Shown: piece after piece, positions 1 to 55,979 of the stretch | Layout of the letters: the number at the start of each line of letters is the position of its first letter | Numbering within the stretch: the stretch's first letter is position 1 | NCBI GenBank assembly: GCA_040268405.1 | Contig: JAWRIR010000142.1 | Location: 478-64,477, forward strand | DNA from: Thermoproteota archaeon | GTDB lineage: Archaea; Thermoproteota; Bathyarchaeia; Bathyarchaeales; Bathycorpusculaceae | Length of the DNA stretch: 64,000 nt | Reading direction: 5' to 3' | Notes under the pieces: generated by a model | The model's database searches: none | The model's input: the letters and a program-made list of their open reading frames with translations, nothing else | What the model was told of the DNA's origin: nothing | Program-made: the position numbers and the translations under genes

Positions 1-329
1 ATTTGGTTGCATTCTTGGTTGCATAGGCGTTGGCGTGTTTGGGTTTGTGTTCCATCGCAGGTTCCTGCTCCGTTACAGATGTTGTCGCCGTCACATGCTT
101 GTAGGCGTTGTCGGGTTTGTGTGCAGGTTTGGTTTTGCTGGCAGTCAGTGCATTGTGTTCCGTCTTGTGTGCATGAACCGTCGCAGTCTCTTATTTGTTG
201 TTGAGTTTGGTCTTGTGTTTGAAGGATGTCACCGTTTAGGCTTTGTGCTAAAGGTGAAGCTGCAACTAATGGGACAAGAACAACCAGCCCCAGTATCATG
301 CTAACCACGAGGATTGCTTTCTTGTTCAT
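1..329 (-). CDS. Secreted Cys/Gln/Thr-rich low-complexity protein (3' end runs off the window; absent from the ORF track)
   Basis: Manual translation from ATG at 329: MNKKAILVVSMILGLVVLVPLVAASPLAQSLNGDILQTQDQTQQQIRDCDGSCTQDGTQCTDCQQNQTCTQTRQRLQACDGDNICNGAGTCDG...; signal peptide; SD GGAGGTGA at 344-337. Confidence 0.85.
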   Translation of the reverse strand, partial: MNKKAILVVSMILGLVVLVPLVAASPLAQSLNGDILQTQDQTQQQIRDCDGSCTQDGTQCTDCQQNQTCTQTRQRLQACDGDNICNGAGTCDGTQTQTRQRLCNQECNQ

Positions 330-397: not shown

Positions 398-454
398 TGA
401 AACGAAACGTTTCAAAAAGTGAAACAGTCTCGAAACAGCTTATAAGTTGTTTCA
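398..454. promoter_or_regulatory. Divergent promoter with GAAAC/GTTTC inverted repeats
   Basis: TGAAACG-AAA-CGTTTCA at 398-414; TGAAACA at 420; near-perfect palindrome GAAACAGCTTATAAGTTGTTTC at 432-453 centred on TTATAA. Confidence 0.7.
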
Positions 455-479: not shown

Positions 480-1016
480 ATGCAGAAACCATTATTCGTT
501 CTCGTAATCGCCCTGCTATGTGTAAGTGTTGTAGGGTTACTTCTTTTTTCTTCGACATTTTTAGGTGATAGCACAAACGGTAGAGGTCACATGATGCAAG
601 ACTCCGGCGTTGTATTGGATAGTTCAAACGTTGGGTGGCTGCTTCTCTTTGTTGTGCCTTTGGTTGTCGCGTTAGGCGTGATAGTTTACATGGTTGCGTT
701 CCCCAAAATCAAACAAACCGCCGCCACAGTTGAAGCCCCCCAAAAAGCCACTCAGTTACCTCATAACAAGCAAACCTTAGACGCCGTCCTCAAAGTGCTA
801 AACGAGGATGAACGCAAAGTAGTTGAAACACTTGCTTCAACCAAAGAGGGTAGCATGCTGCAAAAGGAAATCCGTTGGAAAACAAACCTGTCCAGAGTGA
901 AAGTTCACCGAGTAGTCGCACGTCTTGCCGAGCGGGGTATAGTTTTGGTGGAAAAGCAAGATAACACAAACAAGGTTACTCTTGCCGAATGGATAACGAA
1001 GCCCTCGCCTACTTAA
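480..1016 (+). CDS. Membrane-anchored winged-helix regulator (COG2512-like)
   Basis: Two hydrophobic segments, then LNEDERKVVETL...GSMLQKEIRWKTNLSRVKVHRVVARLAERGIV wHTH; ATG 480 preferred over the ORF-track start at 447. Confidence 0.8.
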   Translation: MQKPLFVLVIALLCVSVVGLLLFSSTFLGDSTNGRGHMMQDSGVVLDSSNVGWLLLFVVPLVVALGVIVYMVAFPKIKQTAATVEAPQKATQLPHNKQTLDAVLKVLNEDERKVVETLASTKEGSMLQKEIRWKTNLSRVKVHRVVARLAERGIVLVEKQDNTNKVTLAEWITKPSPT

Positions 1017-51105: not shown

Positions 51106-51486
51106 TTAAGTTTGTAGGTGCTTTTTTAGGTCTGTTTCGAAGCGGTCAATTAGGGTGTTTAGGCTGTCGGTGATTTCTTTTACGCGGGCTTTTGCGTGTT
51201 CTTTGATTAGGTCTGGTTCAACCATGCTGTATGCGTGGTAGTATCCGCCGCCTTTGAGGGTTTTTGACTGTTTTACAACGAGGTTTGCTGTTATGAGTTT
51301 GGCGAGGCAGCGGTGTACGGAGCTTCGGTCGCGTTGTACGGTGGTTGCGATTTGGTCTAGGGTGGCTTGGGGGTTTTTTGCGACGGCTTGGAGGGTTTCG
51401 AGGTCTATTGGTTTTAGGTTGTAGAGGCAGGTTAGGAGGTCTTGGCATGTGGCGCCTTTTTTTGATAGTAGTTGTATGCTGTCCAT
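51106..51486 (-). CDS. TrmB-like/COG3355 winged-helix regulator
   Basis: TLDQIATTVQRDRSSVHRCLAKLITANLV...GGYYHAY. Confidence 0.85.
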   Translation of the reverse strand: MDSIQLLSKKGATCQDLLTCLYNLKPIDLETLQAVAKNPQATLDQIATTVQRDRSSVHRCLAKLITANLVVKQSKTLKGGGYYHAYSMVEPDLIKEHAKARVKEITDSLNTLIDRFETDLKKHLQT

Positions 51487-51715: not shown

Positions 51716-52183
51716 TTGACAACATACGAAAAAGTCCAAGCATCCAAACCCCAACTTTTAAGCGGAAACCTGCTCGCCTTAGCATGGATTCTACTGGGAA
51801 CCTTTGGCTGCTGGCTAATTAACCCCCTTTACGGTTGGCTCTTTCTAGGATTCTCAGCATTTGTAACCTACGGCATCCTCCGAAGAATGACCTGCAGCTC
51901 ATGCTACTACTGTAAATCATGTACCAAAGGAATGGCCAAACTTTCTCTGCTGTTTCTTGGAGCAAACCACATCCCAGGAATGAGAAAAGGCACAATCCTC
52001 GCAATGGACACCACAATCTACGTCGTGTTAACGTTGATTCCAGGTTGGCTACTTACATCATCGTTGCTTGCAGAGTATGACTTACTAAAACTCGTAGTGC
52101 TAGGCGGCTTAGCGGGGGTTTCCATAATTGCCTTAATAGGTTTAGTGTACCACCTTACGGTAAAACCGAAAACTAAAGTGTAA
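51716..52183 (+). CDS. Four-TM membrane protein with CxxCxxCxxC motif
   Basis: RRMTCSSCYYCKSCTKG between TM pairs. Confidence 0.75.
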   Translation: MTTYEKVQASKPQLLSGNLLALAWILLGTFGCWLINPLYGWLFLGFSAFVTYGILRRMTCSSCYYCKSCTKGMAKLSLLFLGANHIPGMRKGTILAMDTTIYVVLTLIPGWLLTSSLLAEYDLLKLVVLGGLAGVSIIALIGLVYHLTVKPKTKV

Positions 52184-52188
52184 AAATA

Positions 52189-52386
52189 ATGCACAAAGCC
52201 TACATTGAACCCGACAAATGCATACGTTGTCCAATCTGTGGTGCAGCAAGAGCCTGCCCGCCCAAAGCCATTTTCCGCATAGACACTGACGACCCAAACT
52301 TTGTAGAGCCCGACCTTTGCCATGGTTGCGGCGATTGTATGTCTAAATGTCCTGGCAAAGCAATCGTTTTAAAAACTGAAACTTAA
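52189..52386 (+). CDS. 2x[4Fe-4S] dicluster ferredoxin
   Basis: CIRCPICGAARACP and CHGCGDCMSKCP. Confidence 0.92.
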   Translation: MHKAYIEPDKCIRCPICGAARACPPKAIFRIDTDDPNFVEPDLCHGCGDCMSKCPGKAIVLKTET

Positions 52387-52492
52387 CATTTTTATCTCTT
52401 TTATTTTGGCTTATCTGTGGTACAACTATCTTTTACCTTTTTTGAAAAGCAAAAATTATTATGGATTCAAAAGTATTTTCTATAGAAAAATA

Positions 52493-53395
52493 ATGTTAAC
52501 GTGTAAGGGAACAGTTGTCACCATGCTTCTCGTGATAGCTATAGCGCTATTTGCTGTTGGCAACAGTGTAGCTGCCGTATCTGAGTTTCAGGTAGCTTCA
52601 ACCAGTTTACACGTTTTCAGAGACGGTTTAATACATGTTAGTCAAACGATAACTGTTGATGAATTAGCATCCTCGGTAACATTGGAGCTTTTGACTGATT
52701 CAGTTGAAAACGTGTTGATTCTTGATAATGACAAGTTACCTGTTGATTTCACTATTGAAGGTTCAAACATAACGATACTTTCCTTGGGAGAGCAACAAGT
52801 TAGCATTGAATATGATACAATGGCGCTGACGAATAAAGATGCACAAACATGGACTCTGTTGACTAAAAGTTCTTGCGAGTTGATGGTTTCTTTGCCTCCG
52901 AATGCTACACTGTTTTATTTGAGCCAAATGCCTTCAGCCATAAACATTGTTGACAGCGAAATCAGGTTAACTCTTCCTCCGGGCAACTGGGAAGTAAGCT
53001 ACACCTTGCCTTTGGTCACGCAGGAAAGCGAAAACCACCAAGACACCAGCGGAACAACCGGCACCACAGCATCCTTTGACCCACTTATCATTCTTTCAAT
53101 AATAGCTGTTGCCATTGCAGTGGCGGGTGTTTCGGCATTAATGTTTGTTAAACGTACCAAAAAACCGAATATGAAAAAAGTGCTCAAGACCAATCCGCAA
53201 CTTGCTCCAGATGACCAAAAAATCATCGAGTTTTTAATTGAAAAAGGCGGAACCGCTTTCGAGGCAGAGATTCGTGAAAGATTCCCCGATATGCCCCGAA
53301 CAAGTTTGTGGCGACTTGTAAGAAGACTTGAAAGATTAGACCTCGTAGAAATAACCAAGATCGGTTTAGAAAATCAAGTAAAACTTAAAAAATAA
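52493..53395 (+). CDS. Membrane-spanning regulator: extracellular beta domain, TM, cytoplasmic wHTH (COG2512-like)
   Basis: Signal/TM; beta-rich ectodomain; TM; LAPDDQKIIEFLIEKGGTAFEAEIRERF...SLWRLVRRLERLDLVEI. Confidence 0.85.
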   Translation: MLTCKGTVVTMLLVIAIALFAVGNSVAAVSEFQVASTSLHVFRDGLIHVSQTITVDELASSVTLELLTDSVENVLILDNDKLPVDFTIEGSNITILSLGEQQVSIEYDTMALTNKDAQTWTLLTKSSCELMVSLPPNATLFYLSQMPSAINIVDSEIRLTLPPGNWEVSYTLPLVTQESENHQDTSGTTGTTASFDPLIILSIIAVAIAVAGVSALMFVKRTKKPNMKKVLKTNPQLAPDDQKIIEFLIEKGGTAFEAEIRERFPDMPRTSLWRLVRRLERLDLVEITKIGLENQVKLKK

Positions 53396-53400
53396 AAAAG

Positions 53401-54492
53401 TTATTTGCCGCCTTTTGTACTGTTGCCGTTATCTTGGCCTGACCCTGAATCTGAACCGCCGTTGCTGTTGTTGCCGCCAGTTGGTGCAGGCGAAGCTGAT
53501 GATGACGGGCTTGGACTGTTTGAACCACTGCCGCCGGTTGCTTCAGGCGCGTGGGTTGTTGTTCCTCCTTGATGGATTATTTCTTGGTTTAGTGCTTGGT
53601 CGGTGTTTTGTATCAAACTGTTCAAATCGTTAAGGTTGGCAAGTTTATTTTGGAAGTCTCCGGGTTGATTGATGGCTTCTTGGATTCGGTGTTGTAGTTC
53701 TGCAATGTAGGCTGACTCGTTTTTGTAACCCATTGACTGCAAGAAACCGTCAACATCTACTCCTTGAGAGTGTCCATACTGGAATCTTTCCTGAACCATC
53801 GCCATCAGGTTATTGCAGTAATTGTTAAGTCTCCAAGAATCCAACGCTTCACCTTGCATCTTCAGGTTCTGATACGCCTGAGATAGCAAAGCGTTTCCTT
53901 GCTCCATATTGGCAAGTGCTTGTGTGATTTGTTCTTGTGTAGCTAACTGATTTAATGAGTTAATGTTGAAGCAGTTTTCTGCCTGGTTAAGCAGTTCAAG
54001 AGTGCTGGTTTCGTTGCTGGCGACAACTGTTTTTAACCAACTGATTCTTTCTCGTGCACGAACGTTTGCTTCAAGCAACCCTTGAGCATCCGCTTCGTTA
54101 GCAGGTTGAGGGTTACAAATGCCTAAAATTGAATTCATTGACTTATTTACCGTCTTGAAAGTGCTTAGTGCTTGTATCAAACTTGATTGTGCACCTTTGT
54201 AGTCGCCTGAAGCAAATTGGGTTTCTGCATGGGTCAAGTTTTCAGAACCATTCGTATATAATGAAACATTGCCTTCAAACGAGATAAGCAACCCGTAATT
54301 TTCCATTTTTTGGAGAGTTGTTTCGTTTGCTGAAATCTGGTTGATTAAGTCCTCAAGTTGGTTTCTGGTTTGCTTTGTTAGTGTGAGCAGGGTTTGGGTT
54401 GAATCTTGGTTTTGTGCTTGGGCAAAAAAGTTTGCACTAACCATTACGACCATGATGGTTATGAGGGCAAGTGCAAACAGTTTGCGTTTCAT
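53401..54492 (-). CDS. Secreted alpha-helical protein with Gly/Ser/Asn-rich tail
   Basis: Signal peptide MKRKLFALALITIMVVMVSANFFAQA; helical Q/L/E-rich body; no TM anchor. Confidence 0.8.
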   Translation of the reverse strand: MKRKLFALALITIMVVMVSANFFAQAQNQDSTQTLLTLTKQTRNQLEDLINQISANETTLQKMENYGLLISFEGNVSLYTNGSENLTHAETQFASGDYKGAQSSLIQALSTFKTVNKSMNSILGICNPQPANEADAQGLLEANVRARERISWLKTVVASNETSTLELLNQAENCFNINSLNQLATQEQITQALANMEQGNALLSQAYQNLKMQGEALDSWRLNNYCNNLMAMVQERFQYGHSQGVDVDGFLQSMGYKNESAYIAELQHRIQEAINQPGDFQNKLANLNDLNSLIQNTDQALNQEIIHQGGTTTHAPEATGGSGSNSPSPSSSASPAPTGGNNSNGGSDSGSGQDNGNSTKGGK

Positions 54493-54528
54493 AGTAGGAA
54501 CCTTACTGTACAATAGGTGTGGTTGCAG

Positions 54529-54657
54529 TTAAGGAACACTGCTGAAACGAGCGTTTCAACACAAAAACAGGCGCCAAAACAACTTGTACCCAACTTAAAA
54601 TGGTTCGTGAAAAAAGCGTTCCTAAAAATGAAACGATTTTTGCAAAGTGTCCCTTAA
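54529..54657. promoter_or_regulatory. Divergent promoter with three TGAAACG-N2-CGTTTCA boxes
   Basis: Perfect box 54543-54558; degenerate boxes at 54608 and 54629; TGTTCCTTAA (minus, 54538) and TGTCCCTTAA (54648). Confidence 0.75.
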
Positions 54658-54694
54658 CTCACTTGAATGCTACGTCTTTTTTGAGGTAAAACAA

Positions 54695-54910
54695 ATGAAC
54701 ACAAAAACAAAAAGCATCATATTGCTAAGCGTCGTCTTAGTTGCTGCCTGTGCAATGATACTTACAGCCCCAGTTGCAGCTGCAGACTGCACCAAAGATC
54801 AAGTCAAAGACCAGACAAAAGATCAGTTAAAAGACCAAACCTGCACGCCTGACTGCATCCAAGACCAAACTAAACTCCAAACAAAACTTCAACTCAAAGA
54901 TTGCCTTTAA
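54695..54910 (+). CDS. Small secreted Cys/Asp/Gln-rich protein with KDQx repeats
   Basis: Signal peptide, then DCT-KDQV-KDQT-KDQL-KDQT-CTPDCIQDQTKLQTKLQLKDCL; SD GAGGT. Confidence 0.8.
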   Translation: MNTKTKSIILLSVVLVAACAMILTAPVAAADCTKDQVKDQTKDQLKDQTCTPDCIQDQTKLQTKLQLKDCL

Positions 54911-54950
54911 CGGAAACCTTCTCTCAACCCCTTTTTCCTTTTTTTCTCTT

Positions 54951-55000
54951 TGAAACGACCGTTTCACCCTTTGAACTGGTTTTCTCATAATGTCCCTTAA
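54951..55000 (+). promoter_or_regulatory. Second copy of the box-box-TGTCCCTTAA promoter
   Basis: TGAAACGACCGTTTCA at 54951; degenerate TGAACTGGTTTTCTCA at 54972 (+21); TGTCCCTTAA at 54991 (+40). Confidence 0.75.
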
Positions 55001-55037
55001 TTCAGAGAGTCGCATGTATTACGATAGTGATTTAATC

Positions 55038-55979
55038 ATGAATAACCAAAATTGGAAAAAAATTTCAGCAATCCTTGTAGCTGTTTTAGTCTTTGCATCT
55101 TTAACCGCATTTACTAATGCAGCTATTGCCCAAAATAATGGAAACAGCCCAACGCCCTCGGGAGGCAACGGGTCACCTGAACCCTCACAAACACAAACTA
55201 ACAATAGCCAAGGCAACAACTCAACTACACCTTCAACTAATCAAAATTCAAATTCTACAAGCACTCAAAACAGTACACAAACAAGCACTTCAAACAGTAC
55301 ATCAAGTGGTTCGATTCAATCTGGTCCTATGATGCCTGGCGGTTTGTCAGCAAACGCAGAAATGCGTAACAAAACCGATGTGACACCAAAAGCAGACATG
55401 GAACAGGTACGAGCCGGCGAACCAATGTTGCTGCGCTACAGAAACATGACAATGCTGATGAACTGCACAGCTAACTGCAGCGTAGTAGTAACAGCAGATG
55501 AGAAGGTTACACCCAAAATTCTTGGTCTATCAATAGATGGTCAGGAGAACCTTACGGTTGCAATGAACATGTATGGGTCACCTCTTCAGGGTGAAATGGT
55601 TATGGAACGCACCTTGAACTTCTACTTAGGTATTGAACCTAACAATCAGGAACAACTGCGAGGTCAAATTCGCTTGTACATTAACCAGACAGGACTTCAA
55701 CAAGAACTTAACCGGGAAGTTAACGCTTCACGATTAACTTGGATGTTCTGGAACACAACCTCTGCACAATGGCAAGCAGTTCCAAGCTTCATCGACGCAG
55801 ACGGATACTTAGTATGCAACACAGATCACTTCTCAACATGGACCGTTTCAGAAATAGAACAAACAACAGTGCCAGCTGAAAACCTGTTTGACGCTAACAT
55901 GACATACATTGCTGTAGGCGTAGTTGTTGCAGTCATAGCCCTCGTAGCAGTAGTAACTGTTCTTAAAAAGAAAAAATAA
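55038..55979 (+). CDS. Cell-surface protein with Ser/Thr/Asn/Gln-rich N-region and C-terminal TM anchor
   Basis: Signal peptide; low-complexity region; CNTDHFSTW; TM plus KKKK tail. Confidence 0.82.
   Translation: MNNQNWKKISAILVAVLVFASLTAFTNAAIAQNNGNSPTPSGGNGSPEPSQTQTNNSQGNNSTTPSTNQNSNSTSTQNSTQTSTSNSTSSGSIQSGPMMPGGLSANAEMRNKTDVTPKADMEQVRAGEPMLLRYRNMTMLMNCTANCSVVVTADEKVTPKILGLSIDGQENLTVAMNMYGSPLQGEMVMERTLNFYLGIEPNNQEQLRGQIRLYINQTGLQQELNREVNASRLTWMFWNTTSAQWQAVPSFIDADGYLVCNTDHFSTWTVSEIEQTTVPAENLFDANMTYIAVGVVVAVIALVAVVTVLKKKK

What the first reader, a model, noticed from the sequence alone, without database searches (positions are those of the whole stretch)
52493..55979. Candidate one-component membrane signalling regulon: ectodomain-TM-wHTH regulator plus three secreted genes with a shared promoter architecture
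Seen: perfect boxes TGAAACGAGCGTTTCA (54543) and TGAAACGACCGTTTCA (54951). The genes at 54695 and 55038 share one layout: box at 0, second box at +21, TGTCCCTTAA at +40 (54608/54629/54648 and 54951/54972/54991). The divergent gene 54492(-) has TGTTCCTTAA 20 bp from its box. All three targets carry signal peptides, and the adjacent gene is a membrane-spanning wHTH protein with a large ectodomain. Established: upstream-bound archaeal activators such as Ptr2 recruit TBP to weak TATA boxes, and ToxR/CadC are membrane one-component regulators in bacteria. Inference: an envelope or extracytoplasmic stress regulon whose operator I do not recognise as described.
Basis: partly seen in the sequence, partly recalled or inferred. 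Interest (0 to 1): 0.8.

Follow-up and report, generated by a model that had tools for sequence, protein, structure and literature searches.

The report
Membrane-anchored regulator with conserved operator regulon
An uncultured archaeon (Bathyarchaeia) has a membrane-spanning DNA-binding protein sitting next to several secreted-protein genes that all carry the same unusual promoter, and this gene-plus-promoter package recurs in dozens of related genomes, making it a well-supported but untested sensor-to-gene switch.

Summary
Both perfect 16-bp palindromes are the only two in the 2.74-Mb genome. All three TGTYCCTTAA elements lie 46-47 nt before a start codon.

The regulator (REG, 52493-53395) has a signal peptide, a beta-sandwich ectodomain, one TM helix and a C-terminal wHTH. 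Its neighbours T1 and T3 are syntenic with it across Bathyarchaeia.

Fifty-three distinct orthologous promoters share only TTT-TGAAACGCTTGTTTCA-nAGTGTC-CCTTAA, often with a second box 21 bp upstream. The flanking sequence is not conserved.

A gapped PWM finds 103 sites in 59 REG loci (328 kb) and none in the reversed control. In the whole own genome it finds four: T1, T2, T3 and a distant small secreted 'GPAPNSGDG' repeat gene. The motif tracks REG phyletically (p = 1e-10).

CCTTAA occupies the position where this genome's ordinary TATA boxes lie.

Best reading: a type-I-topology transmembrane transcription regulator binds the palindromes just upstream of a non-canonical core promoter and activates a small regulon of secreted proteins. 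DNA binding, the direction of regulation, the signal and an 'envelope stress' role are all untested.

The kind is known (ToxR, CadC, ArnR). This family, its operator and its promoter core are undescribed.

The parts
52493..53395 (+). REG: a 300-aa type-I membrane protein. Signal peptide/TM 5-24, beta-sandwich ectodomain 32-171, disordered linker 176-196, TM 197-217 followed by KRTKK, C-terminal wHTH 227-298.
   Evidence: AF2 model, mean pLDDT 80, with ectodomain and wHTH above 90. Pfam DUF7343 at residues 239-298, E=1e-4, below the cut-off. 825 homologs, every source name Bathyarchaeia or another archaeal label (one 'Crenarchaeota archaeon'); wHTH nearly invariant.
53401..54492 (-). T1: a 363-aa secreted, mostly helical protein with a G/S/N-rich tail. 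It is convergent with REG. Predicted regulon member.
   Evidence: Syntenic with REG in more than 20 loci. Composite site scores 47.0 bits. No family or PDB match.
54529..54538 (-). T1 core-promoter element TGTTCCTTAA. CCTTAA sits at the TATA position, and the element starts 46 nt before the ATG at 54492.
54543..54558 (.). Perfect palindromic box TGAAACGAGCGTTTCA, the proximal operator of T1.
54608..54623 (+). Degenerate distal box of T2, TGAAAAAAGCGTTCCT (4 mismatches), 21 bp upstream of the proximal box.
   Evidence: A distal box or half-site at -21 recurs in orthologous promoters.
54629..54644 (+). Proximal box of T2, TGAAACGATTTTTGCA.
   Evidence: 37.5 bits with the core.
54648..54657 (+). 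T2 core-promoter element TGTCCCTTAA, 47 nt before the ATG at 54695.
54695..54910 (+). T2: a 71-aa secreted protein with four Cys and KDQ repeats.
   Evidence: Orthologs in L020 and L054 carry the same composite promoter.
54951..54966 (+). Perfect palindromic box TGAAACGACCGTTTCA, the distal operator of T3.
54972..54987 (+). Degenerate proximal box of T3, TGAACTGGTTTTCTCA.
   Evidence: 36.5 bits with the core.
54991..55000 (+). T3 core-promoter element TGTCCCTTAA, 47 nt before the ATG at 55038.
55038..55979 (+). T3: a 313-aa surface protein with a signal peptide, an S/T/N/Q-rich stalk, a conserved beta domain of about 150 aa, and a C-terminal TM anchor ending in KKKK. In most genomes it is divergent from REG.
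   Evidence: 701 homologs; the conserved domain is about 55-75% identical to the query among the listed homologs. Synteny. The AF2 model is poor, pLDDT 58, with no fold match.
398..414 (.). 17-bp palindrome TGAAACGAAACGTTTCA. On the minus strand it has a distal GTTTCA half-site and CCTAAA 7 nt downstream. It lies upstream of the Cys/QTQ-repeat secreted gene, a T2 paralog. This is a probable weaker regulon site.
   Evidence: It is below the PWM threshold.
1..329 (-). Secreted Cys-rich QTQ-repeat protein, a T2 paralog whose 3' end runs off the window start. Possible regulon member.
   Evidence: tblastn to the T2 orthologs in L020 and L054 gives E of about 3e-5.

Best explanation
REG is a single-pass, type-I-topology transmembrane transcription regulator: the sensor beta-sandwich is outside the cell and the wHTH is inside.

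Proposed mechanism:
- REG dimers bind the 16-bp palindrome TGAAACGCTTGTTTCA.
- The palindrome ends 7 bp upstream of an invariant CCTTAA, which takes the place of the TATA box. The nAGTGTC or AAATAKY between them sits at the BRE position.
- A second box, often only a half-site, lies exactly 21 bp (two helical turns) further upstream. Two dimers would therefore sit on one face of the DNA.
- From that position REG most likely recruits or stabilises TBP/TFB on an otherwise poor core promoter and activates the downstream gene.

Predicted targets are a small accessory regulon of exported proteins: helical T1; membrane-anchored T3; the small Cys/KDQ-repeat T2 and probably its paralog at window 1-329; and a distant 73-aa 'GPAPNSGDGxxDGSGF' repeat protein (contig C62).

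Shown here: the anatomy, synteny, motif conservation, genome-wide specificity, phyletic co-occurrence and the TATA-position argument.

Inferred only: REG is the factor that binds; it binds as a dimer; it activates; it works from the membrane. The signal is unknown.
For: (1) Specificity. The perfect palindrome occurs only at these two places in the genome. A gapped PWM gives 4 sites in 2.74 Mb (T1 47.0, T2 37.5, T3 36.5, the C62 gene 34.9 bits) and 0 in the reversed control.

(2) Synteny. T3, REG and T1 are linked in more than 20 loci from many genera of the family. T2 and GPAPN genes join the cluster in some genomes.

(3) Footprint. In 53 distinct promoters aligned on CCTTAA, information content is confined to TTT-TGAAACGCTTGTTTCA-nAGTGTC-CCTTAA-nT plus a weak box at -21.

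(4) Linkage. 59 REG loci from species-representative genomes (328 kb, all Bathyarchaeia) hold 103 sites at 18 bits or more, with 0 in the control. 52 of 59 loci have at least one site. Positions are stereotyped: about 100-170 bp upstream of REG pointing away, and at the far end of the convergent gene.

(5) Phyletic pattern.
- Exact GTTTCANAGTGTCCCTTAA: 6 of 13 REG+ genomes against 0 of 48 REG- genomes, p=3e-5.
- In a 401-genome class sample: 17 of 62 against 6 of 339, p=1e-10, with 0 hits for the reversed pattern.

(6) Off-locus targets keep the element. GPAPN orthologs in G030, G007, G052 and G331 carry it. GPAPN homologs were found only in REG+ genomes, 4 of 4.

(7) The recognition helix PRTSLWRLVRRLE is invariant in 45 of the 71 REG loci examined, while the ectodomain is only about 50% identical, which parallels the invariant box.

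(8) CCTTAA lies 43 nt before the ATG. This genome's TATA-like hexamers (TTATAT, TTTATA, TAAATA) peak 55-40 nt before the ATG, and SD-like motifs lie at -15 to -9.

(9) In L044 and L112 one palindrome is flanked by outward-facing cores on both sides. That fits a symmetric factor site plus a directional promoter element.

(10) REG is the only protein with a DNA-binding domain that is consistently in the cluster.

(11) Topology. AF2 gives a hydrophobic helix 197-217 followed by KRTKK, then a canonical alpha1-beta1-alpha2-alpha3-beta2-beta3 wHTH.
Against: - There is no experimental or expression evidence of any kind.
- The wHTH matches Pfam DUF7343 only below the cut-off (22.5 against 27.6 bits) and has no sequence relative in the PDB.
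- The TM-to-wHTH linker is only about 10-20 residues, so target DNA would have to come very close to the membrane, or the domain would have to be released.
- Seven of 59 REG loci have no site within 2.5 kb.
- One REG- genome, G202, has a good orphan site.
- Covariation between helix and box is weak: with the commonest helix, box position 3 is A in 65 sites and G in 24.
- The invariance of AGTGTCCCTTAA is more than a merely weak TATA box would need, so something else may read it.
- The PWM was trained partly on loci that overlap the 59 tested.
- Activation versus repression rests only on analogy with position rules from other archaeal regulators.
Confidence: 0.7

Rival explanations
1. REG binds the palindromes but acts as a repressor. 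It would occlude the BRE and TFB, or loop the two boxes, and the extracellular signal would relieve repression.
For: - The proximal box ends only 7 bp from CCTTAA, so a bound dimer could clash with TFB on the BRE.
- Two boxes 21 bp apart are also typical of cooperative repressors.
- Nothing tested here tells the sign of regulation.
Against: - The box never overlaps CCTTAA or the expected TSS in 53 promoters.
- By established position rules for archaeal regulators, sites upstream of the BRE/TATA usually activate, as with Ptr2, EarA and SurR at activated promoters, and ArnR at pflaB (PMC6396743).
- The core is a poor match to this genome's own TATA consensus, as expected for an activator-dependent promoter.
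Confidence: 0.15
2. A different, unlinked soluble transcription factor binds the box. REG would be just one more co-regulated or co-inherited envelope protein, with its wHTH serving another role.
For: - No binding data exist.
- REG's own promoter in the window (52387-52492) has no box.
- The C62 target is not adjacent to REG.
- One REG- genome keeps a site.
- The wHTH falls below the Pfam cut-off.
Against: - No other DNA-binding gene is conserved in the cluster. The cytosolic wHTH at 51106-51486 is shared only with the same-species genome.
- The motif and REG share the same patchy distribution.
- The recognition helix is invariant where the box is invariant. Lineages with helix variants PRTSM-W or PKTS-WRR/H have 17-bp or TGGAAC...GTTCCA boxes.
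Confidence: 0.1
3. The invariant AGTGTCCCTTAA is read by a dedicated TBP/TFB paralog acting as an alternative general factor, in the way a sigma factor defines a regulon. The palindrome would play only a secondary part.
For: - The genome has 2 TBP genes and 3 TFB genes, one of them on the same contig.
- The core is far more conserved than ordinary TATA boxes.
Against: - TBP copy number does not follow REG.
- REG+ genomes G024 and G054 (the latter 100% complete) each have a single TBP gene. G024 keeps the exact TGTCCCTTAA core; the only G054 site found has the variant core GTGTCCCTTAT, upstream of a T1 homolog.
- The TFB distribution was not tested.
Confidence: 0.05

Closest known systems
ArnR / ArnR1 of Sulfolobus acidocaldarius, membrane-bound one-component activators of the archaellum and pili promoters (PMC6396743)
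   Same: Both are archaeal, membrane-anchored, HTH-containing one-component regulators. Both act at sites upstream of the core promoter of genes for surface structures, and ArnR forms oligomers.
   Different: - In ArnR the HTH is N-terminal and the TM segments are C-terminal. There is no large ectodomain, and it is controlled by phosphorylation.
- REG has the reverse order (ectodomain, TM, then C-terminal wHTH).
- The operator is different, and no sequence relationship was detected.
ToxR, TcpP and CadC, bacterial transmembrane transcription regulators (TTRs; surveyed in PMC10269533)
   Same: Each is a single-pass membrane protein joining an extracytoplasmic sensor directly to a winged-helix DNA-binding domain. 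Each binds repeated sites upstream of its target promoters while in the membrane. ToxR works with a small membrane partner, ToxS; T3 could play such a part here.
   Different: - Those proteins have an OmpR-type wHTH at the N-terminus (type II topology) and act on bacterial sigma-70 promoters.
- REG has type I topology and a MarR/TrmB-like DUF7343-type wHTH.
- REG acts on an archaeal TBP/TFB promoter.
Pfam DUF7345-TM-DUF7343 proteins, the COG2512-type archaeal membrane wHTH proteins. A paralog lies in this genome at C127:48757-49686.
   Same: The overall architecture is the same: signal peptide, ectodomain, TM, C-terminal wHTH. These proteins are also adjacent to secreted-protein genes.
   Different: - REG's ectodomain is not detectably DUF7345; hhalign aligns only the TM and wHTH.
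- Its wHTH scores below the DUF7343 cut-off.
- No paper in the held library mentions DUF7343 or DUF7345, so no function or operator appears to be described for the family.
Ptr2 of Methanocaldococcus jannaschii, an Lrp-family activator (from my own knowledge)
   Same: The promoter logic matches: two palindromic upstream sites abut a weak TATA box, and activation is by TBP recruitment.
   Different: Ptr2 is a soluble Lrp/AsnC protein. There is no homology, so this is an analogy in mechanism only.

Membership tests
Transmembrane transcription regulators (membrane-bound one-component systems, as defined in PMC10269533) | A predicted DNA-binding domain | tested here: met
   The AF2 wHTH has alpha1-beta1-alpha2-alpha3-beta2-beta3 topology with pLDDT above 90. 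All 36 aligned members hit Pfam DUF7343, best E=1.7e-5, although below the gathering cut-off.
Transmembrane transcription regulators (membrane-bound one-component systems, as defined in PMC10269533) | At least one transmembrane segment in the same polypeptide | tested here: met
   A hydrophobic helix at 197-217 is followed by KRTKK, and there is an N-terminal signal-like helix at 5-24.
Transmembrane transcription regulators (membrane-bound one-component systems, as defined in PMC10269533) | Binds specific DNA and controls transcription while membrane-anchored | not testable with these tools
   Only indirect evidence: a conserved operator linked to the gene.
ToxR/CadC family | N-terminal cytoplasmic OmpR-type wHTH (Trans_reg_C) followed by a TM and a C-terminal periplasmic sensor | tested here: not met
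   The domain order is reversed. There is no Trans_reg_C hit in Pfam.
ArnR/ArnR1 | N-terminal HTH with C-terminal TM helices; sequence homology to ArnR | tested here: not met
   The wHTH is C-terminal. All named homologs are Bathyarchaeia hypothetical or membrane proteins. No direct comparison with the ArnR sequence was run.
Pfam DUF7343 / DUF7345 architecture (COG2512-like) | wHTH scoring above the DUF7343 gathering cut-off | tested here: not met
   22.5 bits against a cut-off of 27.6. 25.9 bits in the genome scan. The two paralogs in the genome pass.
Pfam DUF7343 / DUF7345 architecture (COG2512-like) | DUF7345 ectodomain | tested here: not met
   None of the 36 members hits DUF7345. hhalign against the DUF7345-bearing paralog aligns only the TM and wHTH. 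Foldseek instead finds the Ost1/ribophorin-I luminal domain and the N-domain of M1 aminopeptidases, with TM-scores of about 0.3.

The most novel reading that the evidence does not exclude
The module could be a self-contained extracellular peptide-sensing (autoinduction or quorum-like) circuit in Bathyarchaeia. REG's ectodomain, perhaps with the co-conserved membrane protein T3 as co-receptor, would sense one of the small secreted repeat proteins that it itself induces (T2, or the GPAPNSGDG peptide). That would give positive feedback. The invariant AGTGTCCCTTAA would be a REG-dependent core promoter that bypasses a canonical TATA/BRE. Because every target is co-translationally exported, the target loci would be held at the membrane where the tethered factor sits.
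Probability: 0.1. Interest if true: 0.85.

Novelty: new variant of a known kind. Interest (0 to 1): 0.6.

Why it matters
Bathyarchaeia are abundant, uncultured sediment archaea, and I am not aware of an experimentally studied transcription factor or operator in them (own knowledge; only the Pfam DUF and COG terms were searched in the literature). This locus offers a complete and unusually clean hypothesis:

- a named regulator;
- an exact operator, TGAAACGCTTGTTTCA, with 21-bp phasing;
- an invariant non-canonical core promoter;
- a defined small regulon.

All of it is supported by more than 50 independent orthologous promoters, and it can be tested directly with a 75-residue domain and synthetic DNA.

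It would be the first operator assigned to the widespread ectodomain-TM-wHTH (COG2512/DUF7343-type) archaeal proteins. It would also be a second, architecturally reversed example, after ArnR, of transcription control from the archaeal membrane.

The invariant CCTTAA core raises a question about how TBP/TFB are recruited to a G/C-containing TATA substitute.

The biological role of the secreted targets remains unknown, which limits the immediate impact.

Tried and rejected
- **Family searches for T1, T2, T3 and the GPAPN and Cys/QTQ proteins** (Pfam, NCBIfam). Only sub-threshold noise.
- **PDB sequence searches for T1, T3 and the wHTH.** Nothing meaningful.
- **AF2 model of T3.** Low confidence (pLDDT 58), and Foldseek gave no match with E below 0.07, so no fold is assigned.
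- **Ungapped PWM.** It missed the T1 and C62 sites because of 1-nt spacing differences. A gapped version replaced it.
- **'The three promoters are just local duplicates.'** Rejected. Their flanks are unrelated, and the same element stands before orthologs in other genera.
- **'TGTYCCTTAA is a common genomic word.'** Rejected. The 12 other copies lack a box, and most lie in apparently coding sequence.
- **Dedicated TBP paralog.** Not supported.
- **Helix/box covariation.** Only suggestive.
- **Literature search for DUF7343, DUF7345 and COG2512.** Nothing relevant.
- **The 17-bp palindrome at C123:13434.** It lies in a 600-nt stretch with no convincing ORF or CCTTAA element. Left unexplained.

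Full report
**Observation.**
- T1 promoter: TGAAACGAGCGTTTCA at 54543-54558; TGTTCCTTAA on the minus strand at 54529-54538.
- T2 promoter: degenerate distal box at 54608-54623, proximal box at 54629-54644, TGTCCCTTAA at 54648-54657.
- T3 promoter: TGAAACGACCGTTTCA at 54951-54966, proximal box at 54972-54987, TGTCCCTTAA at 54991-55000.

Each TGTYCCTTAA starts 46-47 nt before an ATG (54492 on the minus strand, 54695, 55038).

In the window's own assembly (2.74 Mb, 167 contigs; window = C142:478-64477) the perfect palindrome occurs only at these two places. TGAAAC-N4-GTTTCA occurs 4 times against about 0.7 expected. The other 12 TGTYCCTTAA copies lack a box, and most lie in apparently coding sequence.

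**The proteins.** REG (52493-53395) has no Pfam match above threshold. Its C-terminus hits DUF7343 at E=1e-4.

AlphaFold2 on a 36-sequence alignment (mean pLDDT 80) gives:
- a signal-like helix at 5-24;
- a confident beta-sandwich at 32-171;
- a disordered linker;
- a TM helix at 197-217 followed by KRTKK;
- a canonical wHTH at 227-298.

Foldseek relates the ectodomain only loosely (TM-scores of about 0.3) to the luminal domain of Ost1/ribophorin I and the N-domain of M1 aminopeptidases.

There are 825 homologs, and every source name is Bathyarchaeia or another archaeal label (one is 'Crenarchaeota archaeon'). The ectodomain is about 50% identical across them, while the wHTH is nearly invariant (GxAFEAEIRERFPDMPRTSLWRLVRRLERL).

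The three neighbours:
- T1 (363 aa) is helical and secreted.
- T2 (71 aa) has four Cys and KDQ repeats.
- T3 (313 aa) has an S/T/N-rich stalk, a conserved beta domain and a C-terminal TM anchor.

All three have signal-peptide-like N-termini, and none matches a known family or solved structure.

**Synteny.** REG is present in only 9 of 37 genomes of the same genus and in 62 of 401 genomes sampled across the class. Where it occurs, T3 is usually divergent from it and T1 convergent with it. T2-like and small 'GPAPNSGDGIPDGSGF' repeat genes sometimes join the cluster. The window shows a derived arrangement, shared with two close relatives, in which T3 has moved behind T1 and T2.

**The cis-element.** Upstream of T1, T2, T3 and GPAPN orthologs in other species, genera and families, the same composite element recurs. 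It is TTGAAACGCTYGTTYCA, then 3 nt, then 4 nt, then CCTTAA. The T3 type reads ...CAnAGTGTCCCTTAAGT. The T1 type reads ...CAAAATAKYCCTTAACTAC.

I aligned 53 distinct sites on CCTTAA without gaps. Information content is confined to about 35 nt (TTT-box-nAGTGTC-CCTTAA-nT), plus a weaker second box or half-site exactly 21 bp upstream. The flanks are random. More distant families use TGGAACGGYCGTTCCA...CCTTAT or a 17-bp box, TGAAACGCGGCGTTTCA.

**Specificity and linkage.**
- A gapped PWM finds four sites in the whole own genome and none in the reversed-sequence control: T1 47.0, T2 37.5, T3 36.5 and a gene on contig C62 at 34.9 bits.
- The C62 gene encodes a 73-aa secreted GPAPN-repeat protein. Its orthologs in G030, G007, G052 and G331 carry the same element.
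- In 59 REG loci from species-representative genomes (328 kb; all Bathyarchaeia, including Bathy-6/MCG-6 and Ca. Bathyarchaeum), the PWM finds 103 sites at 18 bits or more, with 0 in the control. 52 of 59 loci have a site.
- Positions are stereotyped: 100-170 bp upstream of REG pointing away, and beyond the convergent gene.
- That is roughly 800 times the density found elsewhere in the own genome. The PWM was partly trained on overlapping loci, so the number is indicative only.
- The exact T3-type word occurs in 6 of 13 REG+ and 0 of 48 REG- relatives (p=3e-5).
- With at most 1 mismatch it occurs in 17 of 62 REG+ against 6 of 339 REG- genomes of the class sample (p=1e-10). The reversed pattern gives no hit.
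- Of the six exceptions, one is at a contig edge and one (G202) looks like a genuine orphan site. Three of the other four have three or four mismatches to the box, and for the fourth (G065) no composite site turned up in the scan.
- GPAPN homologs were found only in REG+ genomes.

**What CCTTAA is.** In about 1,600 upstream regions of this genome the enriched hexamers are ordinary TATA boxes (TTATAT, TTTATA, TAAATA). They peak 55-40 nt before the ATG, and SD-like motifs lie at -15 to -9. CCTTAA starts 43 nt before the ATG, which is the TATA position, but it is a poor match to the consensus.

The proximal box therefore abuts the BRE position. In L044 and L112 a single palindrome is flanked on both sides by outward-facing cores. 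That is what a symmetric factor site with a directional core-promoter element would look like.

A dedicated TBP paralog is unlikely. The genome has 2 TBP and 3 TFB genes, but TBP copy number does not follow REG, and REG+ genomes G024 and G054 each have one TBP.

**Mechanism proposed.** REG dimers on one or two in-phase palindromes immediately upstream of a weak, non-canonical core promoter recruit TBP/TFB and activate a small set of exported-protein genes in response to an unknown extracellular cue.

This rests on three things: linkage, the parallel invariance of recognition helix and box, and position rules known from other archaeal regulators. Binding, dimerisation, the sign of regulation and action from the membrane are all inferred.

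The short TM-wHTH linker means that DNA must approach the membrane. Co-translational export of all the targets could help with that, but this is speculation.

**Comparison with what is known.** Transmembrane transcription regulators are well known in bacteria (ToxR, CadC). They are catalogued as widespread in archaea (PMC10269533) and characterised there only for ArnR/ArnR1 (PMC6396743).

REG differs from all of these in domain order: ectodomain first, wHTH last. It also differs in its sensor fold and its operator. It resembles the uncharacterised DUF7345-TM-DUF7343 architecture, of which this genome has two clearer members (C127:48757-49686 and window 480-1013). It fails both Pfam thresholds for that architecture. 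No paper in the held library mentions these DUFs.

**Verdict.** The regulon interpretation is supported by strong comparative evidence but is experimentally untested. It is a new variant of a known kind of system.

Noticed in passing
window 398-414 and 480-1013: A 17-bp palindrome, TGAAACGAAACGTTTCA, lies between the Cys/QTQ-repeat secreted gene (1-329, minus strand) and a second, shorter TM-TM-wHTH gene. That gene is 178 aa and hits DUF7343 at 33 bits, above the cut-off. More TGAAAC/GAAAC half-sites follow towards the second gene. It is unclear whether REG, this second regulator, or both use the site.
   Followed up: partly
own genome, contig C123:13434-13450 (outside the window): A second 17-bp palindrome, TGAAACGAGACGTTTCA, lies in a roughly 600-nt stretch with no convincing ORF and no CCTTAA element. 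An extra GTTGAAAC lies 50 nt upstream. Unexplained.
   Followed up: partly
window 54990-55037: Public records annotate the T3 ortholog as 329 aa (P0121), starting at the ATG equivalent to 54990. That ATG lies inside the conserved TGTCCCTTAA core. Orthologs and the signal peptide point to 55038 as the true start, so the database models appear to be over-extended by 16 codons.
   Followed up: partly
own genome, contig C127:48757-50334 (outside the window): A third ectodomain-TM-wHTH protein (309 aa; DUF7345 plus DUF7343 plus MarR hits) is followed directly by a secreted protein with a C-terminal anchor. No TGAAAC boxes are present, so it is presumably a paralogous system with a different operator.
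   Followed up: partly
L044 4836-4851 (G331:C112) and L112 about 4850 (Ca. Bathyarchaeum CP070820.1): A single palindromic box is flanked on both sides by outward-facing TGTCCCTTAW cores, an apparent bidirectional promoter sharing one operator.
   Followed up: no
L038 5051 (G202:C8:209051): A good composite site of GPAPN-promoter type (TGGAACGGTTGGTTCAAAGTGTCCCTTAAATCAAC) in a 99%-complete genome with no detectable REG, T1, T3 or GPAPN gene. It may be a relic of a lost module.
   Followed up: no
own genome, contigs C1, C6, C58, C138 and C142:67915-68466: The genome has two TBP genes and three TFB genes. One TFB lies about 12 kb downstream of this cluster on the same contig. TBP copy number varies from 1 to 4 genes within the genus.
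   Followed up: partly
window 51106-51486 (-), 51716-52183 (+), 52189-52386 (+): Just upstream of REG lie a cytosolic 126-aa wHTH protein, a 155-aa Cys-rich membrane protein and a 65-aa 2x[4Fe-4S]-ferredoxin-like gene. They are shared only with the same-species genome, so they are not part of the conserved module.
   Followed up: partly
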